Source of the DNA: a virus
DNA: 64,000 nucleotides
IMG/VR virus record: IMGVR_UViG_3300025141_014981
Span: 1 to 64,000 of that record
Direction: 5' to 3' (one strand)
Shown here: piece by piece, positions 38,619 through 63,639 of the stretch
Numbering within the stretch: the first letter of the stretch is position 1
Layout: each line of letters opens with the position of its first letter
The notes under the pieces: generated by a model
What the model was told of the DNA's origin: nothing
The model's database searches: none
What the model saw: only the letters and a program-made list of their open reading frames with translations
Position numbers and translations under genes: made by a program

Positions 38619-39801
38619 TTAGATTTAGCAATTTGAGCACATTATTTATTTTTGTTCTTTTTAATGCGCTCAATATAAAACTATATAAATTTTCTGTATC
38701 TTTACCAAACAACTTAAAGAGAAAGGAAGAAATATTTTTATATTTACTCAAAACATGTGCAGCATATTCTTTTCTATTGTCAATATGTTGTACATCGTTG
38801 ATTGCGTCTTGAATACTGTCAACTAGCATGTCAATACCATTTTCAATATTGTCAAACATTGCTTTTGATTCTTCAAAGTATGTCTCTATTTCTTCTCGTT
38901 CGCCTTCTAACCATAATGGTACTAAGTTTTTATATTGCAATTGCCCTATTAATCTATGACGCTTCAAATATGTTTCTTTCTTTATTTTAATACGCTTGTT
39001 AGTGCCTCGTTGCCTCACTACAAAACCTTCAAAGTCATCTTGAAATGTATCCATCATTTTAGAGATGCTATCATAATCTGCTTTTACATCAAATATTCTA
39101 GGGCGTTTTGCATTTATTTTTTTGGCTAATTTATTTAGCTCTGCTTCACTAAGCTCATCTAGTGTTTCTAAATCACGTGCACCTATTAGGTATAAGCCAA
39201 GCTCTTCACGGGTATATTGTGTAACAACAGGTCGTTCTGACAAAATTGCTTCGAAGATCAAAGTGTAGTTGTATACATCACTAGATAGTGATAGCTTTTT
39301 TACATATTCACCGATCTCTTTTAGCAAGCTAACTCTACCACCAGTAAAGAGGTTTATAACGACATTAAGGTCGACATCTGATGATGACAGCATCTTGCGT
39401 GTGTGCCAAATTGGTTTGTTATTTTGATCACGTAAAAATGCTAAACCAACAAGTGTGCCGTCCATTTTTTCTATGATATCACTACTTGCTAAGTCAATAG
39501 GTTCAGCTTCTTTTTCTCCTAGATTGAAAAATCTAATAAATGGAAAGCTTACAATATTACCATGTTTGTCTATTACAAGACCACGCGTTAATCTGTTTAA
39601 GTCATTTCTATCACCAAACTGGTTATAGTTCAAGACAATGTAATCACCTTTATATTTAACATCAATCGACTTTTCTTCTAACCATTCTTCATCATTGGTT
39701 AGCACTTTGTCAATTACTACTTGTAGCTTATTTTTAAGTTCAGAATTCTTATTCTCTAGAAGAATAGATTTCTTTATATAACTGTGTAATGCATCTTGCA
39801 T
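38578..39801 (-). CDS. RNA ligase 1 (T4 Rnl1-like)
   Basis: RGL, RFFNLGE, EKMDGT (motif I), FE, EGFVV (IV), KIK (V). Confidence 0.9.
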   Translation of the reverse strand: MQDALHSYIKKSILLENKNSELKNKLQVVIDKVLTNDEEWLEEKSIDVKYKGDYIVLNYNQFGDRNDLNRLTRGLVIDKHGNIVSFPFIRFFNLGEKEAEPIDLASSDIIEKMDGTLVGLAFLRDQNNKPIWHTRKMLSSSDVDLNVVINLFTGGRVSLLKEIGEYVKKLSLSSDVYNYTLIFEAILSERPVVTQYTREELGLYLIGARDLETLDELSEAELNKLAKKINAKRPRIFDVKADYDSISKMMDTFQDDFEGFVVRQRGTNKRIKIKKETYLKRHRLIGQLQYKNLVPLWLEGEREEIETYFEESKAMFDNIENGIDMLVDSIQDAINDVQHIDNRKEYAAHVLSKYKNISSFLFKLFGKDTENLYSFILSALKRTKINNVLKLLNLNDEQTSKDSTENL

Positions 39802-41445: not shown

Positions 41446-42768
41446 CTATCTGATGTTATCATCTGCATTTTTTGCTCTAATAAACTTGGCAACTTTTTCT
41501 TTTGTTATACTAGGGTCGTTAAACCATAACTCTCGTTGTAGTGAAATTAGCTTACCAATTTCAGGCCCGGGCTTCAAATTGAAGGTTTTAATCAGGTAAC
41601 CACCATCAAAGAATATAACAGGTTGCTTACCAAATTCTCTTAGCTTAGTAATTTGATTACGTAACTCTGGCATAATAATGTATAACACATCTAGATATTT
41701 TAGGCTATTATGCTTTGCTAAAGATGCACCAACCTTCATTACTATATTTTTTGCATTATTTGTCTTTAGTATTTGTATAGCACGTATTATTGTTTTGACA
41801 TGTTTTATGATGTCATTTTTTACCTTTAAAGTTCTTAAGCTGGCATCAATGACTTCTGGATCTAAGTTATGTAGCATGATTATTAACATTTCTGTAAATG
41901 ACAACTTACCATCTTGCTTCTTTAAAAGTTTATTAATGATATCATCTGGAGCATATTCTGGAATAATGAACTCCATTAAATTATTATCAACTAGCAACTT
42001 GATAGCATGCGGAGCATTTTCGTTAACAATCATTTTTTCAAATTCATCTCTAATGCGTTCTTTAGAGATATTCTTTAGTTCACTTACTTTCTCTTTTATT
42101 GATCGTTCAAGCTCTTTGTCTAGCTTATATTTATAGCGTGATGTAAAGCGAATTGCTCGTAATATTCTGAGCGGGTCTTCTTCAAGGATAGCATTTGCTG
42201 ATCCTGGTGTTCTGATAATACCCTTCTTTATATCATTGAACCCTTTACCAGTTAGATCAAGAACATTGCCTGTTGTTAAATCTTTGACTAATGAATTAAT
42301 TGTCAAATCTCTACGCATTACATCTTGATTTATTGTACCAAAAGAAATTTCTGGTTTTCTACTTCCTGGTTCATATACTTCTGTTCTTGTTACAACTGCT
42401 TCTATATCTACACCAGTTAGATCAACATCATTATGTTTTACTCCACGTAAGTCGATCTTTGCAGTTCCAAATTTTGGATATACAACAGGGTTTGAACCTT
42501 GCTTGAAAATACCAAGTCGTTTTGCAAGATACTCTGCAAACCTTATACCACCCTCAGGAAGATCAATTACTATATCTAAATCTTTAGTTTCTTTCCCCAT
42601 CACATGGTCACGAACAGCCCCACCTACAAGAAAAACATGTGACTTAAATTCTGATGATGACTTTACTATTTTCTGTAACAGATCAAGTGCTGAGTCAATT
42701 TGCCCTTTTGATGGTTGTATTGATTCAACTATAACTTGTGATATGTACTTTTGCAGTAGTGGTCGCAT
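41446..42768 (-). CDS. cca: Class II tRNA nucleotidyltransferase (CCA-adding enzyme family)
   Basis: VGGAVRD, DLD, RRDLTIN, EDPLRILRAIRF, ERIRDE, C-terminal PGPEIG. Confidence 0.9.
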   Translation of the reverse strand: MRPLLQKYISQVIVESIQPSKGQIDSALDLLQKIVKSSSEFKSHVFLVGGAVRDHVMGKETKDLDIVIDLPEGGIRFAEYLAKRLGIFKQGSNPVVYPKFGTAKIDLRGVKHNDVDLTGVDIEAVVTRTEVYEPGSRKPEISFGTINQDVMRRDLTINSLVKDLTTGNVLDLTGKGFNDIKKGIIRTPGSANAILEEDPLRILRAIRFTSRYKYKLDKELERSIKEKVSELKNISKERIRDEFEKMIVNENAPHAIKLLVDNNLMEFIIPEYAPDDIINKLLKKQDGKLSFTEMLIIMLHNLDPEVIDASLRTLKVKNDIIKHVKTIIRAIQILKTNNAKNIVMKVGASLAKHNSLKYLDVLYIIMPELRNQITKLREFGKQPVIFFDGGYLIKTFNLKPGPEIGKLISLQRELWFNDPSITKEKVAKFIRAKNADDNIR

Positions 42769-57905: not shown

Positions 57906-58559
57906 TTATAGTTCTAGTATATCTTCTGGATTAGCTTTTTCTAACTCTTCGTATTCTTTTTCTAGAATCCATTCCTGCATAGCAGCGTCAATCTCACTTG
58001 GCATTACTTCATCAATCATATACCTAGGTCCAACTAATACGAGTTGACCTAATTTACTTCTTATTTTAAGGGTATCAAAGAACTTTATTGTACTTGCTTT
58101 ACCAAATATTACCAATGCTGGTAATGGTAATGCTAAAAATGGCCACCATGATTCAAATACGAGACCAAAAAATGGTACAAGTACCATAGTAATTAAAATA
58201 AGCCCCACTCCTATTTGTGCTATAGTTGACTTGTCTTTGTTTACAACATATTTTATTTGGTCCCAAATTGGTGAATTAATATGTTTGCTTTTTATATTTG
58301 CATCTACAAGATATTCTTTTGCATACTTGTTATACGCAAATAGCGTTCTTGCAACTTCCTCTTTTCTAATTCTATCACGAACATCACGTATTGCTTTAAG
58401 CTCTAGAGCACTCGGATTATTACCCTTTATACGAACTTCAAGTATTGCTTGTTCAAGTTGCTCTTTATTGAGTTCAGATGTTGACATATTTTTCAATATA
58501 CTCTCTGTCTTGTGAGAAGATAGGAATTCCAAGGTCACACTTCCAAGCTCCATTGTCAT
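57906..58559 (-). CDS. Membrane protein (start probably MSTSEL)
   Basis: Hydrophobic hairpin IGVGLILITMVLVPFFG...WWPFLALPLPALVIF. Confidence 0.6.
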   Translation of the reverse strand: MTMELGSVTLEFLSSHKTESILKNMSTSELNKEQLEQAILEVRIKGNNPSALELKAIRDVRDRIRKEEVARTLFAYNKYAKEYLVDANIKSKHINSPIWDQIKYVVNKDKSTIAQIGVGLILITMVLVPFFGLVFESWWPFLALPLPALVIFGKASTIKFFDTLKIRSKLGQLVLVGPRYMIDEVMPSEIDAAMQEWILEKEYEELEKANPEDILEL

Positions 58560-59178
58560 CTTTTATAATACATGTACCACGCTTTTGCCATATATGACAA
58601 TCATTCCAGTTAATTTTGTGTTCTGAATGAAGTTTTTCTTGAAGCTTTGTACCATTTAACCCTTGTAGCTCTTTATGTGAAAAGAAGCTTCTTGCTAATG
58701 ACTGAATGCTGTTTTTTGTTGCATCTTGCTGACGCCATAAGAAGTAATTAGTCACTTCTTCTCTTGGAAGAACAAAGCACCTGCTATCAAATGTTGGTCG
58801 GTCGGCACATCTATTTGCAATAAATGCTGCAGTTGCAATGCTTGCTGAGACAGATGCAATCTTTTGTGTGTTTTTACCAAACCATGGTTGAGTATTTAAG
58901 TTTTTGTAATCTTGTACAAGAATGCTGATTTCATCACTTTGTGTGTACGCAAATTGTGCACCAGCAATCTCTTTACAAAGTGCTTTAGCTGTTTCACACA
59001 TTACATTATGAACACTTGCATCCCATGGTTTTTCTGCATCTCGTAATAATGTATGAAATGCGCGCCCATCAATACGAATAATCATTGGTGTGCGTAAAGT
59101 CAAAAACATCTTTGAAGCACTTTCATAACACTTCATGCGCTCCCCCAATGAATTACGAGTATTTTGTTTTTTACACAT
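58474..59178 (-). CDS. tRNA(His) guanylyltransferase Thg1 / Thg1-like 3'-5' polymerase
   Basis: LGERMK.YE, IRIDGRAFH, QSDEIS, FDSR, NYFLWRQQDA.KNS, KRG. Confidence 0.95.
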   Translation of the reverse strand: MCKKQNTRNSLGERMKCYESASKMFLTLRTPMIIRIDGRAFHTLLRDAEKPWDASVHNVMCETAKALCKEIAGAQFAYTQSDEISILVQDYKNLNTQPWFGKNTQKIASVSASIATAAFIANRCADRPTFDSRCFVLPREEVTNYFLWRQQDATKNSIQSLARSFFSHKELQGLNGTKLQEKLHSEHKINWNDCHIWQKRGTCIIKDDNGAWKCDLGIPIFSQDREYIEKYVNI

Positions 59179-60270: not shown

Positions 60271-61851
60271 TCAATCTCTTGAGAAATCAGAGATGATCTT
60301 TGGAGTTGCTGTGTCAAATCCAACAACATCTAACATTCCTGCATCTTTTGGATCAGCAATTGTACGATAACTACTTATCATGCCAACAACTACCAACTTA
60401 GCTGGGATACCCATCTTTTGGCGATACTCTTGTAGAGCTTGTGTTGGGTGAACATCACCATACCAAGTCTCACTATCTGTGTAGATAACAAATGTATCAA
60501 CAGGCACTTTCTTTTTCAAAGCGTCAATCATTGGAAGTGCACAATCTGTACCACCCATTCTAACTTTTTCAGTTGCACGCACTGCATCATCTAGTCTTTG
60601 ACGCGGCGAGATATTCACCGGTACCATACCATCACTAAATCCAGCAATATGCCAGTTTTGCTCAGTTGCAGCAGTGATCAACGCCATCGCTGCAGTACCA
60701 ACTCTTGGAGTCAACCCAGGTATACCTGCAATATTTCCCCAAGTCATTGATCCTGATACATCTAGACCTAAGTAGAATCTCTTACCAGTTGGTTCAACAT
60801 TCTGAAATGTCTTGTAGAATGCACCATCAAGTGCATCAACAATCCCAGTCACAGGATTCCATGACAACTTGCCCTTGATGCCTCGACCATTTTCATAAGT
60901 CTTTAGTGCTGACAAAATTTGTATTGGATGTACTCTGCCCCTACGTAAGAGATCTTCATTCGCTAATGAATTGACTACATGCTGTGTAGCATCATTGAGT
61001 GAATCTAACAATCCAATGCTTGTCATCTTACCTAGATTACGAACCATAGCTGTGATTGGCATGTGCTTTAGAAGCGCGCCCCAAACATCTGCATCATTTA
61101 AGAACTCAGTTGGTACACACTCTCGTGGTAGATTATGATTGCTAATTAGATCAACAACTTCATTCTTGTTAGTCGCTACTTGAATACGATTGAACGCATC
61201 AACAATAGTACTATCACATGCCTTACCTTGGGTCACCCAATTGTACAACGCTTGGTGCTCATCTGTTGAGGCTTTAGGATGTGCCAGCCGTAATAGATCT
61301 CTATGTGACCAACCATTTCTTTGACGATACTTTACAAGTTGATATGATAATCTATCAGTATCTTTGTCATTATACCAGTTTGTAACAGCTGTTCTCAGCG
61401 CACGACCCCAACCTCTGAATTGCTCAACGAATCCTGCAAAGTTGAATAGATGTGTGCCAATACGGGCTACTTTTGGTAATGCTTCAAGAGCGGCCTTACG
61501 TGTTTCTAAGCTATCTGCAGCTGCACAAAGTGCCAAAGCAAACAACGCTGTGTCATTTTTTGGTGCTCGACCATTGACACTAATATCAACAATTGCATTA
61601 ACAGTACGCAGCCCATCAGAGTTGATACAACGTAACACTGCTTCTGCGTTTTCTTTTGTCAGTTGTGTTTGTCCCACGTAGTAAGATCCACCTTCTGTGC
61701 CAAGAATCAAGAATCTTTCTAAGCGCTTCCAGTCGTCAATCTCAAATGAGAAACCACCAGCTGCATTTCTACTCATGTCACTACGACCAGGAATTGGTTG
61801 TGACTGAGATGTTCTTTTTGTGCTAAAACTTTTAAGATGTGATGTGCTCAT
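60271..61851 (-). CDS. rsr: Ro60/Rsr TROVE-domain RNA-binding protein with vWA domain
   Basis: NAAGG, RFLILGTEGGSYY, KYRQRNGWSHRDLLRLAHPK, AMVRNLGKM, LDVSGSM, GGTDCALP, YTDSETW, LDVVGFD; ATG 61851 after GAAGGAAGGG. Confidence 0.97.
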   Translation of the reverse strand: MSTSHLKSFSTKRTSQSQPIPGRSDMSRNAAGGFSFEIDDWKRLERFLILGTEGGSYYVGQTQLTKENAEAVLRCINSDGLRTVNAIVDISVNGRAPKNDTALFALALCAAADSLETRKAALEALPKVARIGTHLFNFAGFVEQFRGWGRALRTAVTNWYNDKDTDRLSYQLVKYRQRNGWSHRDLLRLAHPKASTDEHQALYNWVTQGKACDSTIVDAFNRIQVATNKNEVVDLISNHNLPRECVPTEFLNDADVWGALLKHMPITAMVRNLGKMTSIGLLDSLNDATQHVVNSLANEDLLRRGRVHPIQILSALKTYENGRGIKGKLSWNPVTGIVDALDGAFYKTFQNVEPTGKRFYLGLDVSGSMTWGNIAGIPGLTPRVGTAAMALITAATEQNWHIAGFSDGMVPVNISPRQRLDDAVRATEKVRMGGTDCALPMIDALKKKVPVDTFVIYTDSETWYGDVHPTQALQEYRQKMGIPAKLVVVGMISSYRTIADPKDAGMLDVVGFDTATPKIISDFSRD

Positions 61852-61879
61852 TTTAAATCTCCCTTCCTTCAAAATCAAA

Positions 61880-61984
61880 AAGTGGTCAAGTTATGACATC
61901 GAGTAGTTTGGCTCCACAGCCCAAGGAGGAATCGAACCCCACTTTTTCCATTCAAAAAGATAACCGATAATCTCCGGCCCACTT
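61880..61984 (-). ncRNA. Y RNA-like unit 4 (proximal to Ro60), with T-arm
   Basis: AAGUGGGC(C)GGAG...CUUGACCACUU terminal stem with bulged C; GGUUAUC; GGGG-UUCGAUU-CCUC T-arm. Confidence 0.8.
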
Positions 61985-61986
61985 AG

Positions 61987-62040
61987 ATGCTGTTCTAAGA
62001 TTTGAACTTAGATCTACCCGGCCAGGCAGCAATAAGAGCA
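61987..62040 (-). ncRNA. 54-nt D-armless tRNA-like element
   Basis: UGCUCUU/AACAGCA acceptor (one C-C mismatch), CUGCC-UGGCCG-GGUAG hairpin, CUAAG-UUCAAAU-CUUAG T arm, U73, then CUA. Confidence 0.6.
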
Positions 62041-62079
62041 TAAATTATTTTAAGTCGCTCGCTCAAGACGACAGAAAGA

Positions 62080-62233
62080 TTGGGGCAAGTTTATGAAACT
62101 CGGGATAATATGACTTTTGCTCTGCCACTGAGCTACATGAACTGTTATAACTATAAGTCAACAATTCATAGCTGGATTCGAACCAGCGTCCCAAAGTTGG
62201 TTGTTTATGATAACCGTGCCTCTTCGGCCCCAA
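62080..62233 (-). ncRNA. yrlA: YrlA-type Y RNA (unit 3) with complete circularly permuted tRNA-like domain
   Basis: UUGGGGC(C)GA/UUGCCCCAA Ro-binding stem; ACUUU/AAAGU; T arm GCUGG-UUCGAAU-CCAGC; closed acceptor-like stem AUGAAUUGUU/AACAGUUCAU; D arm GCUC-AGUGGCA-GAGC. Confidence 0.9.
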
Positions 62234-62245
62234 ATTTAAGAAACG

Positions 62246-62333
62246 TATGGGCAAATAGTGAAAATTGTCTGTGGAATCGAACCACTAGGACGTAGTCCCA
62301 TCAAACTAGATAACCAAATTTCTTCGGCCCATA
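62246..62333 (-). ncRNA. Y RNA-like unit 2, with T-arm
   Basis: UAUGGGC(C)GA/UUGCCCAUA stem; GGUUAUC; UGGGAC-UAC-GUCCUA hairpin; GUGG-UUCGAUU-CCAC T arm. Confidence 0.82.
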
Positions 62334-62340
62334 TAATAAT

Positions 62341-62406
62341 TGAGGGCAAGTAAGTGCGTTATGGGAGTGTCGTTATAAAGATAACCCAAGATGCTCCGGC
62401 CCTACA
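62341..62406 (-). ncRNA. Minimal Y RNA-like unit 1, no tRNA-like domain
   Basis: AGGGC(C)GG/UUGCCCU stem; UGGG/CCCA second helix; GGUUAUC. Confidence 0.75.
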
Positions 62407-62459: not shown

Positions 62460-62488
62460 ATAATAACATCAAGACTTTGTTTGTACAC
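62460..62488 (-). promoter_or_regulatory. Candidate promoter for the Y RNA-Ro60 transcript (GTGTACA-N16-TATTAT)
   Basis: Variant of the main motif about 55 nt upstream of the first Y RNA unit. Confidence 0.4.
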
Positions 62489-63276: not shown

Positions 63277-63293
63277 CTTGATAATAGCTTGTT

Positions 63294-63375
63294 TGGTGGA
63301 TCGCCTGTGACTTGAACACAGAGACTACGAGGTGCTCCTACCAGCCTTCTACACGCTGTCCGACCATCACGACCC
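63294..63375 (-). ncRNA. Atypical tRNA-like RNA with alanine identity elements and encoded CCA
   Basis: GGGUCGU/GCGAUCC acceptor (G1-C72, G2-C71, G3.U70), A73-CCA, CUGUG-UUCAAGU-CACAG T arm; no D stem, no canonical anticodon loop. Confidence 0.8.
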
Positions 63376-63639
63376 TTATTTATTGTTAGGATTATCTTCA
63401 TGATCTTCCCATTCACCTTCAAAGACAATTTCATCTAAATTTTTTGGAAGACCATCAAATTTATCTGTAGCAAGCTAACCAAACCAATTGTCATCTATTA
63501 TCTTATAGTCATATTTAATATTAAGAATATTAAGCAATTCAAATGGATGAAGATAGTCGTGCTGATAAACACATTTTCCATTAATAAATATGCCATAATA
63601 TTCACCATCACTAGTTATTGTTATTTTTTTATCTGTCAT
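63376..63639 (-). pseudogene. 87-codon ORF interrupted by in-frame TAG at 63475-63477
   Basis: MTDKKITITSDGEYYGIFINGKC...DDNWFG*LATDKFDGLPKNLDEIVFEG...NNK; TAATG-coupled to the upstream gene. Confidence 0.5.

What the first reader, a model, noticed from the sequence alone, without database searches (positions are those of the whole stretch)
60271..62406. Ro60 preceded by a tandem array of four Y RNAs with a constant Ro-binding stem and different cargo domains
Seen: four units (62341-62406, 62246-62333, 62080-62233, 61880-61984) share 5' GGGC(C)GRAG-N5-7-GGUUAUC and 3' AYUUGMCC. These form a terminal helix with a bulged C, plus a second helix whose sequence differs between units while pairing is kept. 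The inserts differ: none; hairpin plus T-arm; full permuted tRNA (T arm, closed acceptor stem, D arm); T-arm plus hairpin. Known: Ro60 binds a bulged-C helix, YrlA RNAs mimic tRNA, some phages carry Ro60/Y RNA, and characterised bacterial loci have about two Y RNAs. Inference: a modular RNP system in which one Ro60 ring is given different adaptors or decoys, each tethering or titrating a different host factor (PNPase, tRNases, T-loop readers).
Basis: partly seen in the sequence, partly recalled or inferred. Interest (0 to 1): 0.88.

Follow-up and report, generated by a model that had tools for sequence, protein, structure and literature searches.

The report
Phage Ro60 gene with four Y RNAs
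A marine phage carries the RNA-binding ring protein Ro60 preceded by four small "Y RNA" genes that share one Ro60-binding stem but carry different tRNA-like pieces; the array is real, but I found similar arrays in many other phage Ro60 loci, so it is a typical member of a known system.

Summary
Four units lie at 62406-62340, 62334-62245, 62234-62079 and 61984-61880 on the minus strand, directly upstream of a canonical Ro60 gene (TROVE plus vWA domains). All four share the same module: a terminal stem, a bulged C, a GR/UU step, a roughly 10-bp helix 2 and then UAUC. A covariance model built only from other phage loci hits these four places full length (32-46 bits, E 3e-5 to 1.5e-8). It hits nothing else in the 64 kb.

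A marine relative whose Ro60 is 80% identical has the same four units in the same order, with compensatory changes in the stems.

The array is not exceptional. Of 60 IMG/VR phage Ro60 loci with enough flank, 24 carry 3 or more such units and 15 carry 4 or more. Earlier agents of this scan reported similar arrays on other DNA. Published work already describes two or more Y RNAs per locus, tRNA mimicry and polycistronic synthesis.

Expression, Ro60 binding and the "different partner for each RNA" idea remain untested. Verdict: a new member of a known kind, of moderate-to-low interest.

The parts
62460..62487 (-). Promoter-like site (TGTACA, 16 nt, TG-extended TATTAT) about 55 nt upstream of unit 1
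   Evidence: Consensus scan. The hexamers and much of the surrounding block are conserved in the 80%-Ro60 relative L088. The motif is unique in the window. Inferred promoter; no transcript data.
62340..62406 (-). Y RNA unit 1: Ro module only, with a short loop (YrlB/Yrn2-like hairpin type)
   Evidence: R1 39.9 bits, E 5.8e-7. R2 39.0 bits. Helix 2 pairs only 5 of 10 positions here but 8 of 10 in the L088 orthologue.
62245..62334 (-). Y RNA unit 2: Ro module plus a small hairpin and a T arm (GUGG-UUCGAUU-CCAC)
   Evidence: R1 32.4 bits, R2 32.1 bits. MFE z-score -2.5. T-loop motif present. Helix 2 pairs 8 of 10 positions.
62079..62234 (-). Y RNA unit 3: YrlA-like, with Ro module, T arm, long closed 'acceptor' stem-loop and D arm
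   Evidence: R2 46.1 bits, E 1.5e-8. Rfam YrlA 27.7 bits, E 0.0012, over model positions 23-85, below the gathering score of 69. MFE z-score -2.8. 91% identical to L088 over ungapped columns, with a C-G to U-A swap in the T stem.
62033..62078 (-). Spacer with a relic-like hairpin. In L088 the equivalent reads as a Ro-type stem without a bulge and without helix 2.
   Evidence: Read from sequence. Not hit by R2 at E up to 10.
61988..62032 (-). Mini tRNA-like element: a short closing stem, a 6-bp hairpin and a perfect T arm (CUAAG-UUCAAAU-CUUAG). It has no Ro module.
   Evidence: 93% identical in L088, against 50-58% for units 1-2. Two hairpins are predicted in both sequences, but there is no covariation. 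The fold energy is not exceptional, z -0.5.
61880..61984 (-). Y RNA unit 4: Ro module (metazoan-type CUUGACC 3' strand, with a G.A mismatch in stem 1) plus hairpin, T arm (GGGG-UUCGAUU-CCUC) and hairpin
   Evidence: R2 44.9 bits, E 2.9e-8. Three compensatory changes against L088, and the G.A mismatch is kept in both.
60271..61851 (-). Ro60 gene (526 aa; TROVE ring plus vWA domain with a DVSGS MIDAS motif)
   Evidence: Pfam PF25045 4.5e-64 and PF05731 1.9e-48. PDB matches: Ro60 9nen 1.9e-133, X. laevis Ro 1yvp 1.8e-131, D. radiodurans Rsr 2nvo 1.5e-124. The MIDAS motif is seen in the consensus.

Best explanation
This is an operon-like Ro60/Y RNA locus of a marine phage. A conserved promoter-like site at about 62487-62460 probably drives one transcript that runs through four Y RNA genes, a mini tRNA-like element and the Ro60 gene. 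No intrinsic terminator is predicted between the units, or between unit 4 and Ro60; the one terminator-like call in the array is a hairpin inside unit 4. The precursor would be cut into small RNAs of about 66, 89, 155 and 105 nt. Each RNA closes on itself through the same module. The order is: a terminal stem; an unpaired C; G.U and A-U (or G.U) pairs; a small internal loop; a roughly 10-bp helix 2 whose sequence is private to each unit; and then UAUC. This module matches the bulged helix that Ro60 binds in animal and Deinococcus Y RNAs, so each RNA should dock on the outside of the phage Ro60 ring. The far end of each RNA differs. It is nothing (unit 1), a hairpin plus T arm (unit 2), a YrlA-type tRNA mimic with T arm, closed stem and D arm (unit 3), or hairpin, T arm and hairpin (unit 4). 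Each would therefore present a different tRNA-like surface to host proteins such as PNPase or tRNA-binding enzymes, or would gate Ro60's access to its substrates. Shown here: the gene anatomy, the covarying module, its specificity for Ro60 loci, and its conservation in a relative. Inferred: transcription, processing, Ro60 binding and any partner.
For: - **Motif and model hits.** The motif matches exactly four times in 64 kb, all upstream of Ro60 on its strand. Models trained on other phages hit only these four sites.
- **Specificity for Ro60 loci.** In 76 IMG/VR Ro60 loci, all 166 R2 hits at E<=0.001 lie on the Ro60 strand. In five whole bacterial genomes of 1.8-5 Mb, the only R2 hits lie within about 1 kb of Ro60, on its strand.
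- **Covariation.** Over 142 distinct units, 90% of cells are paired, against 62% when shuffled and about 40% when slid. There are 882 double changes against 267 in shuffles. Over the 8 window and L088 units, 83% are paired against 67%.
- **Conservation in a relative.** L088 (Ro60 80% identical) has the same four units in the same order, with 3, 0, 0 and 3 compensatory pairs.
- **Match to published features.** The 5' strand fits the published GNCGAAN0-1G Ro60-binding motif (PMC4201824), and unit 3 aligns to the Rfam YrlA T, closed-stem and D arms.
- **Independent Rfam support.** The nematode stem-bulge (Y RNA homologue) model RF01656 scores above its gathering threshold on units of the same family in L076 and L025.
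- **Precedents.** Y RNAs are processed from one precursor upstream of rsr in M. smegmatis and D. radiodurans. Phage phiLo Ro60 binds two upstream Y-like RNAs and host PNPase.
- **Not an assembly artefact.** The same DNA is present unchanged in contigs from four further marine metagenome runs.
Against: - There is no expression or binding evidence: no RNA run holds the stretch.
- Rfam's curated models do not reach threshold. YrlA scores 27.7 against a gathering score of 69, and no Y_RNA hit was found.
- Unit 1's helix 2 pairs only 5 of 10 positions, and its fold is no better than shuffles (z -0.67). Unit 4's MFE is also unremarkable, z 0.02.
- Units 1 and 4 read GCCGGAG rather than the published GNCGAA core.
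- The alignments used for covariation were selected by, or fitted to, the structure, which inflates the pairing figures.
Confidence: 0.8

Rival explanations
1. The units are not free RNAs. They are cis-acting Ro60-binding sites in the long 5' leader of the Ro60 mRNA, letting Ro60 regulate its own translation or stability.
For: No terminator is predicted between unit 4 and the Ro60 start. The array sits immediately 5' of the RBS.
Against: In several other phages the same kind of array lies downstream of Ro60, for example L026, L065, L035, L020, L044 and L055. Characterised bacterial Y RNAs are cut out of such precursors as stable RNAs. Each unit is closed by its own terminal stem with private helix 2 pairing.
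Confidence: 0.07
2. The tRNA-like parts act on their own as decoys or substrates for host tRNA-targeting nucleases or tRNA enzymes. In this reading the Ro-type stem is only a stabilising clamp, and Ro60 is incidental.
For: T arms recur in units 2-4 and in the mini element, and the most tRNA-like parts (unit 3, mini element) are the most conserved at 91-93%. The phage also encodes a Thg1-like enzyme, a CCA-adding-type enzyme and Rnl1.
Against: The module is found only next to Ro60 genes and on their strand, in phages and bacteria alike. Unit 1 has no tRNA-like part at all.
Confidence: 0.06
3. Part of the array is decaying. Unit 1 (weak helix 2) and the hairpin at 62078-62033 are non-functional remnants of a once larger array, and only units 2-4 work.
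For: Unit 1's helix 2 pairs 5 of 10 positions against 8 of 10 in L088. Units 1 and 2 are only 50-58% identical to their L088 counterparts. The relic-like hairpin is not hit by R2.
Against: Unit 1 still scores 39-40 bits with both models, and both strands of the Ro-binding helix are intact. Its orthologue is retained in L088.
Confidence: 0.15

Closest known systems
Bacterial and phage Rsr/Ro60 with YrlA and YrlB Y RNAs (S. Typhimurium, M. smegmatis, mycobacteriophages; Chen et al. 2014, PMC4201824; Rfam RF02553)
   Same: The RNAs are encoded next to Ro60 on the same strand. They carry the GNCGAA-type 5' strand. One RNA has T arm, closed stem and D arm in the YrlA order, and one is a plain hairpin type. 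M. smegmatis YrlB also has a T arm, and its Y RNAs come from one precursor.
   Different: There are four units rather than the two characterised per species. Both strands of the Ro-binding helix are recognisable here, whereas only the 5' strand is in Salmonella and M. smegmatis. Unit 3 scores only 27.7 bits on RF02553, well under the gathering score of 69.
D. radiodurans rsr locus: Yrn1, Yrn2 and small RNAs a, b, d, made as a polycistron with tRNA-Asp (PMC4201824)
   Same: Several small RNAs lie upstream of Ro60, and some have T arms but no canonical stem (compare the mini element here). A tRNA sits inside the precursor. The bulged helix is metazoan-type, with both strands kept.
   Different: Here all four units carry the canonical stem. 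The embedded tRNA-like piece is a roughly 45-nt mini element with no D or anticodon arm, not a real tRNA.
Thermus phage phiLo Ro60 with Yrl1 and Yrl2 (PMC12135203)
   Same: A phage Ro60 has Y-like RNAs directly upstream with a CGAA motif. Binding to phage Ro60 and to host PNPase was shown there.
   Different: phiLo has two RNAs, not four. No tRNA-like inserts are mentioned in the passages I read.
Metazoan Y RNAs and nematode stem-bulge RNAs (Rfam RF01656)
   Same: The bulged-C helix has a GGNCCGA 5' strand and a CUUGNCC 3' strand, followed by GGUUAUC-like sequence (my recollection of the human Y RNAs). RF01656 passes its gathering score on sister phage units.
   Different: No window unit was reported by Rfam for these families. 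The inserts here are tRNA-derived, unlike the pyrimidine-rich loops of animal Y RNAs.

Membership tests
Y RNA (Ro60-associated small RNA) | Encoded beside a Ro60/TROVE gene, on the same strand in bacteria and phages | tested here: met
   All four units lie within 530 nt upstream of Ro60 on the minus strand.
Y RNA (Ro60-associated small RNA) | The 5' and 3' ends pair into a stem carrying the conserved Ro-binding helix with a bulged C (GNCGAAN0-1G 5' strand) | tested here: met
   The bulged C is invariant. Units 2 and 3 read GCCGAAG. Units 1 and 4 read GCCGGAG, which keeps a G.U pair; this variant occurs in 53 of 142 family members.
Y RNA (Ro60-associated small RNA) | Structure supported by covariation | tested here: met
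   Double changes were seen at 17 of 20 pairs over 142 units, and both the slid and shuffled controls score far lower. The alignment is fitted to the model, so the figures lean towards the structure.
Y RNA (Ro60-associated small RNA) | Expressed as a discrete small RNA and bound by Ro60 | not testable with these tools
   No RNA run holds the stretch.
YrlA (Rfam RF02553), unit 3 only | Score at or above the curated gathering threshold (69 bits) | tested here: not met
   27.7 bits, E 0.0012, over model positions 23-85 only. None of 18 other phage loci reached the threshold either.
YrlA (Rfam RF02553), unit 3 only | tRNA-like domain in the order T arm, closed acceptor-like stem, D arm, enclosed by the Ro-binding stem | tested here: met
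   The cmscan alignment places GCUGG-UUCGAAU-CCAGC, then a 33-nt stem-loop, then UAGCUCAGUGGCAGAGC. The enclosing stem is hit by R2. The T stem shows a compensatory change in L088.
Ro60 / Rsr protein | TROVE HEAT-repeat ring plus C-terminal vWA domain with a MIDAS motif | tested here: met
   Both Pfam domains score far above their cut-offs. Full-length matches to the Ro60 structures 9nen, 1yvp and 2nvo. DVSGS is present.

The most novel reading that the evidence does not exclude
Expanded Y RNA arrays may be a phage speciality. One Ro60 ring would be armed with a graded series of tRNA-part mimics: no insert, T arm only, T arm plus stem, and a full T/acceptor/D set. These would serve as separate adaptors or decoys against host tRNA-directed defences. 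They would be released from one precursor by RNase P/Z acting on the embedded, 93%-conserved mini-tRNA. They would work together with the phage's own Thg1-like, CCA-adding and Rnl1 enzymes as a tRNA-protection island. In my small sample, five bacterial genomes had 1-2 units, while 25% of phage loci had 4-6.
Probability: 0.2. Interest if true: 0.65.

Novelty: new member of a known kind. Interest (0 to 1): 0.35.

Why it matters
Ro60/Y RNA particles are conserved from bacteria to humans, and human Ro60 is a major autoantigen, yet what the variable half of a Y RNA does is still largely unknown. This locus adds nothing new in principle. Together with the roughly 60 phage loci surveyed here, it does show three things. 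Phages commonly carry 3-6 Y RNAs with one constant handle and different tRNA-derived ends. Rfam annotates none of them. A simple covariance model finds them with very high specificity. That gives a ready catalogue for testing the "one ring, many adaptors" idea in phage-host systems.

Tried and rejected
- I could not fetch the contig of P0002 directly and found its relative through metagenome contigs instead.
- **No close relatives in two collections.** Megablast of the locus against the phage collection gave no match. Genome contigs held no close relative, only Ro60s at 52-55% identity.
- **Rfam.** The gathering scan annotated none of the units.
- **Model R1.** R1 could not span the long inserts of units 3 and 4 and paired their 5' halves with wrong partners. 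Retraining as R2 on the wider hit set solved this.
- **Crude partner finder.** My first 3'-partner script mis-paired unit 1 with unit 3's 3' end and missed unit 4 because of its G.A mismatch.
- **Single-sequence folding.** Fold z-scores are not significant for unit 1, unit 4 or the mini element, so folding energy alone does not support them.
- **Sequencing runs.** No RNA holder is listed. Laying contigs from four DNA runs showed no variants, so they gave no population-level covariation.
- **Literature.** The 2020 review PMC10870794 is not held.
- **Sampling bacteria.** A draw of 401 genomes from one phylum yielded only 4 with Ro60, so the phage-versus-cell comparison rests on five genomes.
- **Promoter alternative.** I rejected a second promoter at TTGATC...AAAAAT just before unit 1, because L088 has a 7-nt deletion in its spacer.
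Full report
**What is there.** The window is part of a 76-kb uncultured virus record, estimated about 40% complete. Its DNA recurs unchanged in several marine metagenomes. The ORF at 60271-61851 (minus strand, 526 aa) is a canonical Ro60. Pfam gives vWA_Ro60 at 4.5e-64 and TROVE at 1.9e-48. It matches the solved Ro60 structures 9nen, 1yvp and 2nvo over its full length, with E-values from 1e-124 to 1e-133. Ro60 homologues are annotated in 363 phage records, mostly actinophages, at under 60% identity.

**Checking the observation.** I wrote the shared 5' motif as a regex: G.CG[AG]A.?G, then 3-10 nt, then G[GT]T[AT]TC. It matches four times in the whole window on both strands, and all four matches lie in the 430 nt upstream of Ro60 on its strand. 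The same regex matches 86 times on the Ro60 strand and twice on the opposite strand across 80 IMG/VR Ro60 loci.

Inspecting those units gave a common architecture, in this order:
- a terminal stem of 6-8 bp;
- one unpaired C;
- G.U followed by A-U or G.U;
- one unpaired A on the 5' side;
- a helix 2 of about 10 bp that ends in GG(U);
- UAUC, then a variable insert;
- the 3' strand of helix 2;
- a 5-7 nt loop (ACUCAC-like), then UU or UC;
- the 3' strand of the terminal stem.

**Model test.** I aligned 31 short units from other phages (A2) and built model R1. The window's units were not in the training set. R1 hit the window only at the four units. Units 1 and 2 were hit full length (39.9 and 32.4 bits), while units 3 and 4 were hit only in their 5' halves because of their long inserts.

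I rebuilt the model on the 135 hits from the other loci (R2). R2 gave full-length hits for all four units:

| Unit | Coordinates (minus strand) | Bits | E-value |
|---|---|---|---|
| 3 | 62079-62234 | 46.1 | 1.5e-8 |
| 4 | 61880-61984 | 44.9 | 2.9e-8 |
| 1 | 62340-62406 | 39.0 | 7e-7 |
| 2 | 62245-62334 | 32.1 | 3.1e-5 |

Nothing else in the window scored at E up to 10.

**Is the structure real?**
- On 142 distinct units aligned to R2, 90.2% of cells form pairs. The figure is 61.8% in shuffles and 36-48% when the 3' partners are slid. There are 882 double-sided changes against 267 in shuffles.
- On the 8 window and L088 units, the figures are 82.9% against 66.9%.
- These alignments are fitted to the model, and my seed units were chosen by pairing, so the numbers lean towards the structure.
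- The strand bias is independent of that caveat: all 166 R2 hits at E<=0.001 lie on the Ro60 strand.
- So is the whole-genome specificity. In five bacterial genomes of 1.8-5 Mb, the only R2 hits lie within about 1 kb of Ro60, on its strand.

**A close relative.** A Tara-type marine contig, L088, has a Ro60 80% identical to this one. It carries the same promoter-like block, the same four units in the same order and the same intervening element. Identity differs sharply by segment:

| Segment | Identity to L088 (ungapped columns) |
|---|---|
| Mini element | 93% |
| Unit 3 | 91% |
| Unit 4 | 70% |
| Unit 2 | 58% |
| Unit 1 | 50% |

- Orthologous units 1 and 4 each show three compensatory pairs. 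Unit 3's T stem changes C-G to U-A.
- Unit 4 keeps a G.A mismatch inside stem 1 in both phages, while the neighbouring pair changes U-A to C-G.
- Unit 2 keeps its Ro module, but its insert is rearranged: the T arm lies 3' of the small hairpin here and 5' of it in L088.
- The weak point is unit 1 of the window. Its helix 2 pairs only 5 of 10 positions, against 8 of 10 in L088.

**The inserts.**
- Unit 1 has only an 18-nt loop.
- Unit 2 has a 4-bp hairpin and a T arm.
- Unit 3 aligns to Rfam YrlA positions 23-85, covering T arm, closed stem and D arm, at 27.7 bits and E 0.0012. That is well under the gathering score of 69.
- Unit 4 has a U/A hairpin, a T arm and another hairpin.
- Between units 3 and 4 lie a relic-like hairpin and a roughly 45-nt element: a short closing stem, a 6-bp hairpin and a perfect T arm. 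It has no Ro module.
- In other arrays, T-arm hairpins and real tRNAs are also common in the spacers, at 18 in 4.8 kb.

**How unusual is it?** I counted R2 hits (E<=0.001) for each non-redundant IMG/VR locus with at least 1200 nt of upstream flank:

| Units per locus | 0 | 1 | 2 | 3 | 4 | 5 | 6 |
|---|---|---|---|---|---|---|---|
| Loci (n = 60) | 7 | 9 | 20 | 9 | 9 | 4 | 2 |

So 24 of 60 loci have 3 or more units, and 15 of 60 have 4 or more. The arrays mix short units (106), T-arm units (21 with one T-loop motif and one with two), T+D units (17) and other long units (21). A four-unit array with mixed inserts is therefore ordinary for phage Ro60 loci. Earlier agents of this scan reached the same view on other DNA.

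Five bacterial genomes had only 1-2 units. That hints that the expansion is a phage trait, but the sample is small.

**Comparison with the literature.**
- Chen et al. 2014 (PMC4201824) reported YrlA-like RNAs next to Ro60 in 254 bacteria and 22 phages, the GNCGAAN0-1G motif, and at least two Y RNAs per characterised species.
- They also found a T arm in M. smegmatis YrlB and processing of its Y RNAs from one precursor.
- For D. radiodurans they described five small RNAs upstream of rsr, co-transcribed with tRNA-Asp.
- Phage phiLo Ro60 binds two upstream Y-like RNAs and host PNPase (PMC12135203).
- I found no held paper describing arrays of 4-6 units in phages. The step from what is published is one of number, not of kind.
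- One real difference from Salmonella and M. smegmatis: both strands of the Ro-binding helix are recognisable here, as in Deinococcus and animals. Consistent with that, Rfam's nematode stem-bulge RNA model passes its threshold on sister units in L076 and L025.

**Context.** Within 23 kb, the phage also encodes:
- a Thg1-like enzyme at 58474-59178;
- a CCA-adding-type nucleotidyltransferase at 42211-42636;
- an Rnl1-type RNA ligase at 38968-39588;
- two tRNAs.

No RtcB was found.

**Mechanism and verdict.** The most likely reading (confidence 0.8) is a co-transcribed set of four Y RNAs that dock on phage Ro60 through a shared bulged helix and present different tRNA-derived ends. Transcription, processing, binding and partners are all inferred. 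The finding is real and well delimited, but it is a new member of a known kind. I score interest at 0.35.

Noticed in passing
window 61988-62032 (-): Mini tRNA-like element inside the array: a closing stem, a 6-bp hairpin and a perfect T arm, with no D or anticodon arm and no Ro module. It is 93% identical in the relative L088, far above units 1-2. It may be an RNase P/Z processing handle or a fifth T-arm RNA.
   Followed up: partly
window 62033-62078 (-); L088 2770-2808: Relic-like hairpin. In L088 it reads as a Ro-type stem (UGAGUCGGAG ... CUUGACUCA) with no bulge and no helix 2. In the window it is more degraded. It may be a decayed fifth unit.
   Followed up: partly
window 58474-59178 (-): Thg1-like 3'-5' nucleotidyltransferase (PF04446 2.6e-29; phrog_4717 1.7e-84), 1.1 kb downstream of Ro60.
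   Followed up: partly
window 42211-42636 (-) and 38968-39588 (-): A CCA-adding/PolyA_pol family enzyme (79 bits) and an Rnl1-type RNA ligase (62 bits). With the Thg1-like enzyme, Ro60 and the tRNAs they form a tRNA/RNA repair kit. No RtcB was found in the record.
   Followed up: partly
window 63290-63380 (-): A T-loop motif (GTTCAAGTC) lies in a short gene-poor stretch where another first-reader note proposes a CCA-ended tRNA mimic. The MFE is not better than shuffles (z -0.55), and neither ARAGORN nor Rfam at gathering threshold calls a tRNA there.
   Followed up: partly
L088 2602-2675; L062 2881-2954; L076 2483-2557: ARAGORN calls 'tRNA' genes that actually lie inside YrlA-like Y RNA units. 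This is a likely source of false tRNA annotations in phage genomes.
   Followed up: no
L076 2398-2471 and 2743-2866; L025 2708-2781: Rfam's nematode stem-bulge RNA family RF01656 scores above its gathering threshold on phage Y RNA units. RF02553 (YrlA) reached threshold in none of the 18 phage loci scanned.
   Followed up: no
L026, L065, L035, L020, L044, L055 (downstream of Ro60): In some phages the Y RNA array lies downstream of Ro60 rather than upstream, often leading into tRNA clusters. L026 also has a permuted tmRNA.
   Followed up: no
window 61880-61984 (-), stem 1: A G.A mismatch inside the Ro-binding stem of unit 4 is conserved in L088 while the adjacent pair covaries. It may be a functional non-canonical pair.
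   Followed up: partly
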